Positions 18,001 to 21,000 of a stretch of DNA of 64,000 nt are shown in pieces. Within the stretch, counting starts at the first letter, position 1; each line of letters opens with the position of its first letter. Position numbers: made by a program. Origin of the DNA: Escherichia coli (GTDB lineage Bacteria > Pseudomonadota > Gammaproteobacteria > Enterobacterales > Enterobacteriaceae); the NCBI RefSeq assembly GCF_002854065.1, contig NZ_CP024147.1; one strand, 5' to 3'.

Positions 18001-21000
18001 GCTGTCATCATCGGGCGGGGTGAAAATCAGTTAATTCCCGTTTGCACCGAAAGAATATGCTGCAAACTTTCTACCATAATGCGCCCCGACTGAAATAAGC
18101 CTTCCTGGATTTCATTGTTAACATTCACAGCGTGAACCAGGGAGGCTAATAATACTACTTGCAAGAAGGCAAAAATAAACGCACCGATAATCATAATATG
18201 CGTCAGGGGTATTTTCCTTTGTTCCTTCATTTTAAATAACCCACAAACTGGCCTTCTTTCATTAAGGCGACTTTTCCTGTGTGATGATAAACAATGACGT
18301 TATACAGACCTGACTGATAAACAGTGGCATCTTTATTGTCTTCATCAATTGCACATAATGAATCATTGAGATAAGCAAAGTTTTTACTGCTCATTCTAAA
18401 GGTCATGCCAAATCCTTTATAAATGGCTTTCTTTGCCGCCTGGGCGTGTTGTGCGGCTTCTGCATTTTTAAATGCCTGTGCCTCGGATGCACTTAAAATA
18501 GCCGCCTGACGCTGCTGTTCTGCGAGATAACAGGTGTCATGGCTGACGCCCTGCGCCTGGCAATCTGCGATGCGGGAAGCGGGTGAGCTACAGCCAGCCA
18601 GTAATATAACCGCCAGCAGGGAAAACGATTTAATGGAGCTATTCATCATTGTTAACCTTAAATAATGTACAAATTAATGAAGAGGTGAAAACCGGCAAGC
18701 TTCCTTGCTCTTATTTATATTGAGGATTGAAATATTAGAACGAATATCCCACGCCGACACCCGCGCCGAAATCAGATTGTGTATCCGCAGAGACACCGGC
18801 TTTAATCACGGTATGCGTTCCGGCATTAAAAGATGTTCCTACAGACACCGCAGATTCACCGTTGAAGGTTCCCGCTCCCGCTGACACCATCATCAAGTCA
18901 CCGGTTTTCACCTGGGGTTGTGAGGCGATAGCGATGGCAGATGCAGTTCCCGCATTGGCTTCTTTACGATTATCCTCAACTTCGTTTTTCAGCGAACTGA
19001 AATGGTTATTGAGCGTGTTAATTTGCTGGCTGTTATCTGCAACCCGTTTTTGGGTGTTGGTTAACTGTTGGTGCGTTTGGGTTACGTCTTGTGACAGGCT
19101 GTCAATTTGTTCATGTGCCTGGGCAGACTCCTGCGCCAGACTTTGCATTTGTTTATCGTATTGAGTCCTTTCATTTTGCTGTTGTGCTGCCACATCGGTT
19201 GTCAGCGCATTCATTTTCTGCCCTTGTTCAGTGGTGGTGCGCTGATTAGCCTCATTTTGAGCCGCCAGTCTGGCATTAATCATCTCCTGATAATGCGCGG
19301 TATTTTGCGTATCTCCAGTCGCGGCGAGCGTTTTTTGTGTGGCTACGATCTACGCCTGTTGCTCTGTAATTTGCGTTTGCTGGGCGTCAGTTACCGCAGA
19401 CTGTCGGGCGTTGATCATGCTCTGATAACGGGCAGTTGTCTGTACATCACCTGTAGCGGCAACGGTTTTTTGTCCTGCGTCAGGATCTGTCTGGACAGTG
19501 GGAGTCTGAGTGGTATCAGGTGTTTCAGAAGGGATGTAGTGATGTTCAGTCAAATAGGTATACGCAGCGGGGCTGTTGTCTGTGCGTTCTAAAAAGCGGG
19601 TAATCTTCTGCTCAATCTCCGATTGCGACATGCCAGAGTTAATGGCTGAAAGCTCTGTTGCCGCCGCTTCAATGGTATCACCAGCTAAAACAACAGGGCT
19701 AGATGTTGCTGAAATTATGAGTGCCAGTAAAGCTACGTTTACAGTTTTCATTCATTTTCTCTTGTTCAAAATAAGTCGTATTAATGTTTCTATAAGAAAC
19801 AAATAATATTGTTTTAAGAAATAAACTGCGTTGCAATTTGATCGAAATCTACGCCGCCATTTATGTGATGTAAAGCGCATTTTTGTTTGGTGTAAGCGTA
19901 AATACCACCAATAAGAAACAAAAATTGTTTCTTTTATAAATAAAAAAGGAAAACATTTCGTGCTCTTTCAATGTAAAAAAGAGTAAAGACTAGTTTTGAT
20001 AAGCGAAATAAATTCTGTTTCTGGACTAAACGTGAAGCGGTTCCTGATGTGTGCTAAAATGCGTTTCTTTGATAAATCTCAATTTTTAAGAGGTTTACGC
20101 CAGGCAGGAAAATTTAAATGAATGAATTTGAGAAGATTTTTAATGAAATGAATCTGGACCGGGCATTGCTACCGATCCTTTTTCGTTCGAACCGGTCGAC
20201 AGTGTGGAAGTATTTAAGCGGCGATAGTACGGCTCCTGCCTCTGCCATGTCGCTGATTATGCTGTTGCAGTTGATACAGAAACGAAACCCCGATCTGTTA
20301 GCCGAATGGTTAACGCTTTCTGATTTCACCATTCCGCCAGAAGTTTACCTGGACCAGCCTGATTACTGGAAAGGGTGGGTGTATACCCAACACAAGGTCA
20401 ATAAAAACGTCCTGGAATATCTAAAAAAACACTATCCGGATGAAGACCAAAAAAGTATGGGTAAAGGCAGGGAAGAGTAATTTTGCCTCTACTCGGCTAT
20501 ATGCCGGATGCGGCGCAAGCGCCTTATCTGGCCTACGATTCGGGCATATTTTGTAGGCATGATAAGACGCGTCAGCGTCGCATCAGGCGATGACCGCACG
20601 GATGATCAGCGTTATCCCTTCTATCGCAATGACTTCAACATGCGTACCTGCGCCGAGATCCTCGCTGGCGCTGACAGGCCATGAACTGTCACCGACGCGC
20701 ATATGACCGCGCCCGTTGACCAGCGGAGATTCCAGCACAAAACGTCGGCCAATCAGCTGCTGCCCGCGCTGGTTTAAATGACTGTCGCTGTGCTTTTGTT
20801 CGCGCACCCGCCGCGACAACCATTTCCACCACAGCCAGGCGGCGAGCAGCGTCAGGACGGCAAACATCACCCCTTGCCACTCCCAACCCAGCGGCACCAG
20901 CCAGACCACCAGGCCGGTAATCACCGCTGCCACGCCACTCCACAACAAATAACCATTTCCGCCCAGCATCTCGGCTGCTAGCAGCAACCCGCCGAGACTG

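What the first reader, a model, noticed from the sequence alone, without database searches (positions are those of the whole stretch)
19752..20480. Strongly AT-rich segment and 120-aa hypothetical ORF at the edge of the insertion
Positions 19752-20117 are markedly AT-rich compared with flanking core genes, typical of horizontally acquired, H-NS-silenced DNA and of complex promoter regions. The segment lies between the divergent YadA-anchor gene and a 120-aa ORF of unknown function, and the insertion ends in REP elements at 20500-20590.
Basis: seen in the sequence. Interest (0 to 1): 0.3.

Follow-up and report, generated by a model that had tools for sequence, protein, structure and literature searches.

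The report
Control region of E. coli island OI-29
The AT-rich stretch is the shared, evolutionarily conserved promoter/operator region between a short YadA-type surface adhesin gene (published as "gmrA") and a small helix-turn-helix protein (z0640) that is most likely its local regulator, all inside the already described E. coli O157 island OI-29.

Summary
Positions 19752-20117 have 30.3% GC, the lowest of any 366-bp stretch in the window. They lie between a leftward YadA-family gene and a rightward 120-aa ORF, and a REP pair follows. The 2.56-kb insert between cueR and ybbJ is O-island 29 of E. coli O157:H7. It is absent from K-12 and present in 1410 of 5426 complete genomes. Mapping of published primers shows that the 120-aa ORF is z0640 (uncharacterised) and the YadA-family gene is z0639, "gmrA". 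In this window gmrA carries an amber stop.

New here: z0640 is predicted with confidence to be an Xre-type helix-turn-helix protein. Its homologues, down to 43% identity, always sit divergently from a YadA-anchor gene, in most lineages across a ~360-bp AT-rich spacer. The spacer is conserved in blocks. These are two promoters, a perfect CpxR-type box, and six to seven fixed-position GTTTCT boxes (palindrome GTTTCT-N3-AGAAAC), about 20-fold enriched.

The published "transcriptional activator" GmrA has, by sequence, a signal peptide and a YadA membrane anchor. The gene kind is ordinary, but the locus is worth re-examining.

The parts
18024..20582 (.). O-island 29 (OI-29) insert between the cueR stop and the ybbJ stop
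   Evidence: K-12-like genome has cueR directly abutting ybbJ. The homology arms of the published OI-29 deletion primers map to 17986-18023 and 20592-20630. The insert is present in 1410 of 5426 complete E. coli genomes.
18027..18230 (-). 67-aa hydrophobic protein, last gene of the adhesin operon
   Evidence: ORF, annotated in RefSeq. A 64-68-aa equivalent is present in the cassette of other genera.
18227..18649 (-). z0638, 140-aa lipoprotein
   Evidence: RefSeq names it 'lipoprotein'. The z0638 deletion-primer arms flank it. It is conserved downstream of the adhesin gene in other genera.
18735..19751 (-). z0639 = gmrA, 338-aa YadA-family trimeric-autotransporter-type gene; here interrupted by an amber codon at 19350-19352
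   Evidence: Pfam YadA_anchor scores 47.4/45 bits against a cut-off of 22.7. It matches PDB anchors of AtaA and Hia at E 2e-7 to 3e-6. RefSeq product is 'YadA family autotransporter adhesin'. The gmrA deletion, cloning and pET primers map to its ends. The stop codon is shown.
19752..20117 (.). 366-bp AT-rich divergent control region (the finding)
   Evidence: GC 0.303, lowest in the window. Block-wise conservation in 8 sequences from several genera. 55-61% identity to other genera, against 48-54% for the adjacent adhesin 5' coding sequence.
19846..19874 (-). Predicted sigma-70 promoter of gmrA: -35 TTTACA (19874-19869), 17-nt spacer, -10 TAGATT (19851-19846)
   Evidence: This is the only promoter-like hit of the scan. 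The -35 and the TAnnTT positions of the -10 are invariant, and the spacer has no gaps in alignment A3. The transcription start is not experimentally known.
19786..19800 (.). Box 1: perfect palindrome GTTTCTATAAGAAAC, about +39 to +53 of the predicted gmrA transcript
   Evidence: Zero mismatches to GTTTCT-N3-AGAAAC. A GTTTC lies at the same distance (34-37 nt from the adhesin start codon) in 11 of the 12 spacers examined (all but L017).
19914..19941 (.). Boxes 4/5: AGAAAC (19914-19919) and GTTTCTTTTATAAAT (19927-19941), upstream of the gmrA -35
   Evidence: Equivalent GAAAC/GTTTC pairs occur at the same place in L007, L009, L011 and L013.
19973..19987 (+). GTAAAAAAGAGTAAA, a perfect match to the CpxR consensus GTAAA-N5-GTAAA
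   Evidence: It is the only perfect match in the 64-kb window. It is also perfect in L005, L017 and L019 and 9/10 in L004, L006, L009 and L011. This is a consensus match only; binding is untested.
20017..20031 (.). Box 6: GTTTCTGGACTAAAC, about -50 to -36 of the predicted z0640 promoter
   Evidence: GTTT is invariant in A3.
20052..20060 (+). Predicted extended -10 promoter of z0640 (TGcTAAAAT)
   Evidence: The pattern TGnTAnnAT is invariant in all 8 aligned sequences. It is also present (TGGTAAAAT) in the distant homologue locus L017.
20063..20077 (.). Box 7: GTTTCTTTGATAAAT, overlapping the predicted z0640 transcription start
   Evidence: GTTT is invariant across genera and lies 53-58 nt before the ATG in most lineages.
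20118..20480 (+). z0640, 120-aa predicted Xre-type helix-turn-helix protein with a family-specific helical C-terminal half
20503..20588 (.). Pair of inverted REP elements (BIME) closing the island; the second overlaps the ybbJ stop codon
   Evidence: O157:H7 carries one extra REP here, a 78-bp insertion.

Best explanation
The AT-rich segment is the shared control region of two divergent transcription units of island OI-29. Leftward runs the operon gmrA(z0639, a short YadA-type trimeric autotransporter)-z0638(lipoprotein)-67-aa gene. Rightward runs z0640.

Shown here: the region carries two conserved promoters, a CpxR-consensus box, and an array of positionally conserved GTTTCT boxes (an imperfect 15-bp palindrome, GTTTCT-N3-AGAAAC). 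The promoters are a -35/-10 promoter for gmrA and an extended -10 promoter for z0640. z0640 is predicted to encode a small Xre-type helix-turn-helix protein. This protein family is always paired divergently with a YadA-anchor gene.

For: 1. Anatomy and composition are given.
2. Identity with OI-29, z0639 and z0640 was established by mapping published primers.
4. Conserved pairing. In all 11 lineages examined (E. coli, three Pseudocitrobacter-type loci, Symbiopectobacterium, L009, L011, L013, L014, L015, L017), the homologue lies divergent to a YadA_anchor gene, or in L007 to its truncated remnant. These homologues go down to 43% identity and sit in three different chromosomal contexts. The spacer is 356-408 bp in ten of the lineages and 231 bp as annotated in L017.
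5. Motif. GTTTCT occurs 6 times in the spacer against 0.3 expected. P<0.001 against dinucleotide shuffles in 9 of 12 spacers (0.003 in a tenth). The boxes sit at conserved positions, including 22-bp phasing at 35/57/79. All four matches with 2 mismatches or fewer to the 15-bp palindrome in the whole 64-kb window fall inside the 366 bp.
6. Promoter hexamers are invariant across genera.
7. z0638, gmrA and z0640 are co-expressed and co-repressed on host-cell contact (PMC5826968 Table S3).
Against: - No Pfam or NCBIfam HTH model reaches its threshold.
- The GTTTC-N5-GAAAC unit resembles OmpR sites (from memory), so a global regulator could own the boxes.
- The most distant locus, L017, keeps the promoter and the CpxR box but has only AGAAA-type variants of the box.
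- Transcription starts are predicted, not measured.
Confidence: 0.6

Rival explanations
1. The segment is simply AT-rich, horizontally acquired DNA silenced by H-NS. z0640 is an unrelated passenger gene and there is no dedicated operator array.
For: GC is 30% within a 43.7%-GC accessory insert absent from K-12. Published gmrA expression depends on temperature and osmolarity (PMC5826968 section 19), which is typical of H-NS-controlled genes (general knowledge).
Against: Conservation is block-wise and exceeds that of the adjacent adhesin coding DNA. One hexamer is enriched about 20-fold over dinucleotide-shuffle expectation, at fixed positions across genera. The H-NS nucleation motif is not enriched in the segment. 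H-NS binding is compatible with the best explanation rather than an alternative to it.
Confidence: 0.15
2. [not shown]
For: The only perfect CpxR consensus in the window lies in the segment and is conserved across genera. The GTTTC-N5-GAAAC unit resembles ompF F2 and ompC C1 OmpR sites (recalled from memory, not tested). gmrA transcripts fall at high osmolarity, off-neutral pH, and 3 h after host-cell attachment (PMC5826968), which are cues that activate Cpx and EnvZ-OmpR (general knowledge).
Against: The boxes are inverted repeats with an invariant G1 and never carry the 'AC' of the left OmpR half-site. That fits a symmetric HTH dimer better than head-to-tail OmpR. The strict co-inheritance of z0640 with the spacer and adhesin gene would be left unexplained.
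Confidence: 0.2
3. [not shown]
For: EMSA and ChIP-qPCR of GmrA on the fliA promoter, and motility phenotypes in eight strains, are reported in PMC5826968.
Against: The protein has an N-terminal Sec-type signal sequence (MKTVNVALLALIISATSSPVVLA, by inspection). Its only above-threshold domain is the C-terminal YadA membrane anchor. It matches solved TAA anchors. Orthologues have length-variable passengers of 338-615 aa. It was earlier listed as 'Saa-like protein' among adhesins, under ECs0548 of S-loop43 (PMC2323221); that this tag equals z0639 is inferred from its distribution. Other Pfam and NCBIfam hits are sub-threshold coiled-coil noise. The fliA EMSA fragment contains no match to the 15-bp box.
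Confidence: 0.04
4. z0640 is an orphan antitoxin of a degraded type II toxin-antitoxin module (HigA2/MqsA-like).
For: The best sequence and fold matches include the HigA2 and MqsA antitoxin HTH domains.
Against: No toxin-like ORF is adjacent in any of the 11 lineages. The constant partner is a divergent YadA-anchor gene. z0640 is followed directly by REP elements and ybbJ.
Confidence: 0.02

Closest known systems
O-island 29 (z0638-z0639/gmrA-z0640) of E. coli O157:H7 EDL933 (Yang et al. 2018, PMC5826968); S-loop43 of Sakai (Ogura et al. 2007, PMC2323221)
   Same: It is the same locus. The published deletion, cloning and qPCR primers map onto the window genes with 0-2 mismatches, and the window is 98.1% identical to an O157:H7 genome.
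   Different: In this window gmrA has an amber stop at codon 134, and there is one REP fewer than in O157. The literature treats z0640 as a hypothetical protein with no phenotype and GmrA as a transcription factor. The sequence evidence here points the other way: z0640 is the HTH protein and GmrA is a YadA-type autotransporter.
Small Xre-type HTH autoregulators with palindromic operators over their own promoter: Aca2/Aca1, restriction-modification controller (C) proteins, HigA2/MqsA antitoxins
   Different: No sequence model reaches threshold. The C-terminal half is family-specific. The partner gene is a surface adhesin rather than an anti-CRISPR, a restriction enzyme or a toxin. There are six to seven boxes spread over about 330 bp rather than one or two operators.
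YadA/Saa/Hia-type trimeric autotransporter adhesins
   Same: z0639 has a signal peptide, a Q-rich coiled-coil stalk with a 45-aa tandem repeat, and a C-terminal YadA_anchor.
   Different: It is very short (338 aa) with no recognisable head domain. It is followed by a conserved lipoprotein and a 67-aa membrane protein. It is reported to affect motility (PMC5826968).
OmpR site arrays of ompF/ompC and CpxR boxes of envelope-stress promoters
   Same: The segment has phased repeated GAAAC-containing sites and a perfect GTAAA-N5-GTAAA. Expression responds to osmolarity, pH and attachment.
   Different: The resemblance to OmpR sites is recalled from memory only. The boxes are inverted, not tandem, repeats. 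No binding data exist.

Membership tests
O-island 29 of E. coli O157:H7 | Insert between cueR and ybbJ carrying z0638, z0639 (gmrA) and z0640 | tested here: met
   Published primer arms map to the island borders and to each gene. The window is 98.1% identical to an O157:H7 chromosome over 3.5 kb.
Xre/Cro-C1-type helix-turn-helix DNA-binding proteins (z0640) | Five-helix lambda-repressor-like fold with an HTH | tested here: met
   [not shown]
Xre/Cro-C1-type helix-turn-helix DNA-binding proteins (z0640) | Significant match to a curated HTH sequence model (HTH_3, HTH_19, MqsA and similar) | tested here: not met
   The best hit is MqsA_antitoxin at E 0.0071-0.082 and 13.5 bits against a cut-off of 30. 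HTH_3 and HTH_19 score E about 0.2. NCBIfam gives nothing.
Xre/Cro-C1-type helix-turn-helix DNA-binding proteins (z0640) | Sequence-specific binding to a (usually palindromic) operator | not testable with these tools
   Only indirect evidence exists: enriched, positionally conserved GTTTCT-N3-AGAAAC boxes next to the gene.
Type II antitoxin (HigA2/MqsA-like) | Co-transcribed toxin gene adjacent to the HTH gene | tested here: not met
   No such ORF is present in the window or in 11 related loci. The neighbours are a divergent adhesin gene and unrelated housekeeping genes.
Trimeric autotransporter adhesins (z0639/gmrA) | C-terminal YadA-like membrane anchor domain | tested here: met
   PF03895 scores 47.4 and 45.0 bits against a cut-off of 22.7. 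AtaA and Hia anchors in the PDB match at E 2e-7 to 3e-6.
Trimeric autotransporter adhesins (z0639/gmrA) | N-terminal Sec signal peptide | tested here: inconclusive
   MKTVNVALLALIISATSSPVVLA-GD has the n/h/c pattern by inspection, and it aligns with the N-terminus of the L009 orthologue. No signal-peptide predictor was available.
Trimeric autotransporter adhesins (z0639/gmrA) | Trimerisation and surface display | not testable with these tools
   This needs fractionation or heat-stable-trimer assays.
H-NS-silenced xenogeneic DNA | AT content well above the genome average in strain-variable DNA | tested here: met
   GC is 30.3% for the spacer and 43.7% for the island, against 53.5% for the window. 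The island is absent from K-12-like genomes.
H-NS-silenced xenogeneic DNA | H-NS occupancy and derepression in hns mutants | not testable with these tools
   No ChIP data were found. The nucleation motif TCGATAAATT gives only two 2-mismatch hits in the segment.
REP/BIME elements | Imperfect palindromic REP consensus in inverted pairs, repeated in the genome | tested here: met
   An exact REP core lies at 20503-20515 with an inverted partner at 20576-20588. There are 23 copies in the window against 4.4 expected. The query hit a median of 6 places per genome.
CpxR regulon | GTAAA-N5-GTAAA box near the promoter | tested here: met
   A perfect box lies at 19973-19987, unique in the window and conserved in other genera. 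Binding by CpxR was not tested.

The most novel reading that the evidence does not exclude
Probability: 0.3. Interest if true: 0.6.

Novelty: new member of a known kind. Interest (0 to 1): 0.42.

Why it matters
OI-29 is present in EHEC O157:H7, EPEC O55:H7, NMEC, APEC and many ExPEC strains, and it has been linked experimentally to flagellar motility.

If z0640 is the island's real DNA-binding regulator and gmrA encodes a surface autotransporter, the current model needs re-testing. That model treats GmrA as a laterally acquired transcription factor acting on fliA. The adhesion/motility switch of these pathogens would gain a new, simple regulatory module that can be tested with strains and plasmids that already exist.

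It would also give a function to an orphan protein family with no Pfam or NCBIfam model. The conserved box array is a ready-made target for footprinting.

Tried and rejected
1. RNA-level function of the boxes (thermosensor or leader structure). The gmrA leader folds no better than shuffles (z = -1.25), and RNAalifold finds no conserved pair in six genera. The boxes also occur in both orientations and upstream of both promoters.
2. A hidden coding sequence in the spacer. The 41-aa TTG ORF at 19996-20121 overlaps the conserved z0640 promoter, and one metagenomic homologue (P0021) is annotated with an in-frame extension. However, indels between the -10 and the ATG are not multiples of three, and the ORF is out of frame with z0640 here. 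This is DNA-level conservation, not coding.
3. Known RNA families. Only sub-threshold REP-derived naRNA4 hits appeared.
4. H-NS nucleation motif. It is uninformative here.
5. The same box in the fliA promoter fragment used for the GmrA EMSA. It is absent, so the boxes do not connect the island to PfliA.
6. z0638 lipoprotein compared with solved structures (including a SadB-like helper idea). Nothing was found.
7. A sigma-28 promoter in the conserved GTAAAG...CGAAATAA block. I counted about 6 of 16 mismatches by eye and did not pursue it.
8. The genome-contig scan with the wide alignment failed. With the close alignment it returned only 4 species: Escherichia sp. E1V33, E. whittamii, Pseudocitrobacter and Ca. 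Symbiopectobacterium.
9. The afdb50 fold library was not available.
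Full report
**Observation**

The window is E. coli DNA around copA/cueR-ybbJ-qmcA-fetAB. Positions 19752-20117 have 30.3% GC, against 53.5% for the window. This is the lowest-GC 366-bp stretch in the 64 kb, and only 0.1% of windows are as low.

The stretch is exactly the spacer between two genes:
- a minus-strand gene whose product carries a YadA_anchor domain (18735-19751);
- a plus-strand 120-aa ORF (20118-20480).

Downstream lie two inverted REP elements. An exact GCCGGATGCGGCG sits at 20503-20515 and its partner at 20576-20588. There are 23 copies in the window against 4.4 expected, and sub-threshold naRNA4/REP hits fall at the same place.

One detail was missed. In this strain the YadA-family gene has an in-frame amber codon at 19350-19352. 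The codon is absent from a 99.9%-identical Gambian isolate and from O157:H7.

**What the insert is**

In K-12-like genomes the cueR stop abuts the ybbJ stop. The window has 2,559 extra bases (18024-20582, GC 43.7%). The insert occurs in 1410 of 5426 complete E. coli genomes, including O157:H7 at 98.1% identity. RefSeq annotates four genes in it:
- a 67-aa protein;
- a lipoprotein;
- a 338-aa 'YadA family autotransporter adhesin';
- a 120-aa hypothetical protein.

A literature search identified the insert as O-island 29 of EDL933 (Yang et al. 2018, PMC5826968). I mapped the primers of that paper's Table S2 onto the window:

| Published primers | Window feature |
|---|---|
| OI-29 deletion arms | 17986-18023 and 20592-20630 |
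| z0638 | the lipoprotein gene |
| z0639 = gmrA | the YadA-family gene (the pET primer begins ATGAAAACTGTAAACGTAGCTTTA, encoding MKTVNVAL) |
| z0640 | the 120-aa ORF of the finding |

The paper reports that z0640 has no motility phenotype. It also reports that z0638, gmrA and z0640 are all expressed in DMEM (RPKM 20, 96 and 43.5) and all silenced 3 h after attachment to HeLa cells. gmrA transcripts peak at 37 °C, pH 7 and low osmolarity.

**The 120-aa protein**

No Pfam or NCBIfam model reaches threshold. The best hit is the MqsA antitoxin HTH region at E 0.08. The family is very small:
- 21 clusters at 90% identity;
- 19 representatives among 1.84 billion proteins;
- four species in GTDB: Escherichia sp. 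E1V33, E. whittamii, Pseudocitrobacter and Ca. Symbiopectobacterium.

Residues 1-60 are therefore an Xre-type HTH, with recognition helix N-R-S-T-x-x-K-Y-L. Residues 60-115 are a family-specific helical domain.

**Conserved pairing**

I fetched the genomic context of homologues down to 43% identity. In every lineage the gene is transcribed divergently from a gene with a YadA_anchor. The spacer is 356-408 bp in ten lineages and 231 bp as annotated in L017.
- In Pseudocitrobacter-type loci (L004-L006) and in L011 and L012, the whole cassette (about 65 aa, about 150 aa, adhesin, small protein) lies between qmcA and fetA or ybbN, not between cueR and ybbJ.
- L013, L014, L015 and L017 have unrelated surroundings.
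- The L009 neighbour, unannotated in the precomputed table, has the anchor at E 3e-11.
- The Symbiopectobacterium neighbour is a truncated copy of the GmrA stalk.

This constant gene pair in changing contexts argues for a functional couple.

**The spacer**

An alignment of eight spacers from E. coli and other genera (A3) shows discrete conserved blocks.

1. On the minus strand there is a promoter for gmrA: TTTACA, 17 nt, TAGATT (19874-19846). It is the only promoter-like site found by the scan. The -35 and the TAnnTT positions are invariant and the spacer has no gaps.
2. On the plus strand there is an extended -10, TGcTAAAAT (20052-20060). The pattern TGnTAnnAT is invariant in all eight sequences. 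It is also present in the distant locus L017, inside what is annotated there as coding sequence, so that start codon is probably mis-called.
3. GTAAAAAAGAGTAAA (19973-19987) is a perfect CpxR consensus. It is the only one in the window and is perfect or 9/10 in most other genera.
4. The hexamer GTTTCT or its complement occurs six times in the 366 bp against 0.3 expected. P<0.001 in 9 of 12 spacers (0.003 in a tenth).

The GTTTCT sites sit at conserved positions:
- about 35, 57 and 79 nt from the adhesin start codon (22-bp phasing; the second and third are degenerate in E. coli);
- a pair at about 164/176;
- one at about -50 relative to the predicted z0640 transcription start;
- one over that start.

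The sites extend to an imperfect 15-bp palindrome, GTTTCT-N3-AGAAAC. Box 1 (19786-19800) is perfect. All four matches with 2 mismatches or fewer in the whole 64-kb window lie inside the spacer. The spacer is 55-61% identical between E. coli and the other genera. That is more than the adjacent adhesin 5' coding DNA (48-54%) and a little less than z0640 (64-73%).

**Mechanism**

- **Shown:** the composition, the island, the predicted HTH fold, the conserved pairing, the conserved promoters and the box array.
- **Autoregulation:** the box over its own start would give autoregulation, as in C-proteins, Aca proteins and antitoxin HTHs.
- **Adhesin control:** the boxes in the predicted gmrA leader and upstream of its -35 would control the adhesin operon, most likely by repression.
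- **Other inputs:** CpxR, possibly OmpR, and H-NS may act on the same AT-rich DNA.
- **Fit to published data:** these inputs would fit the reported falls in expression at high osmolarity, at off-neutral pH and after attachment. That link rests on general knowledge of these systems, not on a test.

**Rivals**

- **H-NS silencing as the whole story.** It does not explain the block-wise conservation or the hexamer enrichment. The nucleation motif is not enriched. H-NS may still bind.
- **A global regulator owning the boxes (OmpR).** This is the most serious rival. The unit GTTTC-N5-GAAAC recalls ompF F2 and ompC C1, although I recall those sites from memory. The inverted symmetry and invariant G1 fit a symmetric HTH dimer better, and this rival leaves the co-inheritance of z0640 unexplained.
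- **An RNA element.** This is rejected.
- **An antitoxin.** There is no toxin partner anywhere.
- **GmrA as a DNA-binding autoregulator.** This conflicts with its sequence, as set out next.

**GmrA**

- a Sec-type signal sequence (by inspection);
- a Q-rich stalk with a 45-aa tandem repeat;
- as its only above-threshold domain, a C-terminal YadA membrane anchor, which matches the solved AtaA and Hia anchors;
- orthologues with passengers of very different length, 338-615 aa.

Ogura et al. 2007 list ECs0548 (S-loop43) as a 'Saa-like protein' among adhesins, with the same strain distribution. That this tag equals z0639 is my inference. The other Pfam and NCBIfam hits are sub-threshold coiled-coil matches such as SMC, TMF_DNA_bd and zf-C4H2. 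The 'putative DNA-binding domain' of the paper's Figure S3B, which I could not see, may be of this kind.

The fliA fragment used for EMSA has no match to the 15-bp box. The complementing plasmid pgmrA carries almost the whole spacer (18734-20070). pz0640 carries it too and does not complement, so the adhesin ORF itself is needed for the motility effect.

I cannot explain that effect. An envelope-signalling route is a hypothesis only.

**Origin**

The island is accessory and has low GC, but simple horizontal gain is not established.
- The same cassette occupies the same chromosomal neighbourhood in other genera, shifted by one operon.
- K-12 keeps a 98-bp remnant of the type I secretion gene of the neighbouring giant-adhesin island, so at least that island was lost by deletion.

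**Verdict**

The finding is real and its reading as a 'complex promoter region in an accessory island' is right. The locus itself is already described.

Three things are new:
- a function proposed for z0640 as an Xre-type local regulator of a short trimeric autotransporter;
- a conserved multi-operator architecture in the spacer;
- a sequence-based conflict with the published role of GmrA.

In kind this is a new member of a known class. Interest is moderate.

Noticed in passing
window 19350-19352 (minus strand codon 134 of gmrA): gmrA/z0639 is interrupted by an amber codon (CAG to TAG). A 99.9%-identical strain and O157:H7 have the intact 338-aa gene. The adhesin, and the published 'GmrA' function, are therefore probably lost in this strain.
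   Followed up: yes
window 18735-19751; PMC5826968: The published 'transcriptional activator GmrA' is, by primer mapping, the protein with a signal peptide and a YadA membrane anchor that RefSeq names 'YadA family autotransporter adhesin'. No paper in the searchable library comments on this.
   Followed up: partly
window 19973-19987: The only perfect CpxR consensus (GTAAA-N5-GTAAA) in the window lies here. It is conserved in other genera, including the 43%-identity locus L017 (4921-4935).
   Followed up: partly
L003 1423-1520 (K-12-like genome), compare window 16444-17619: K-12 keeps a 98-bp frameshifted remnant of the HlyD-family type I secretion gene that overlaps the cueR start. The giant RTX-type adhesin island (window 11-17619; 4756-aa ORF, ABC transporter, MFP) was therefore lost from K-12 by deletion.
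   Followed up: no
L004-L006, L011, L012 versus window: In Pseudocitrobacter-type genomes the same four-gene cassette lies between qmcA and fetA or ybbN, rather than between cueR and ybbJ. It has moved by one operon within the same neighbourhood.
   Followed up: partly
L018 1225-1903 (E. coli CD306-type alleles): Some E. coli strains carry a different, frameshifted 679-bp ORF between cueR and ybbJ instead of OI-29.
   Followed up: no
P0016, P0018 (E. coli z0640 alleles): Some E. coli lineages have z0640 frameshifted after about residue 78. This keeps the HTH but replaces the C-terminal domain.
   Followed up: no
L017 5001-5060: The annotated start of the distant homologue P0023 lies upstream of the conserved extended -10 (TGGTAAAAT at 5003-5011). 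The true start is probably Met20.
   Followed up: partly
window 20576-20588 / ybbJ 3' end: The last codons of ybbJ differ between K-12 (…LHIRAVSS) and OI-29 strains (…LIIRAVIA). In the latter they are partly encoded by the REP element. O157:H7 has an extra 78-bp REP here.
   Followed up: partly
L014 1220-4641: One related locus carries two tandem YadA-anchor genes (533 and 584 aa) opposite the z0640 homologue. They are followed by a weak ParE-like ORF and by the lipoprotein and small-protein pair.
   Followed up: no
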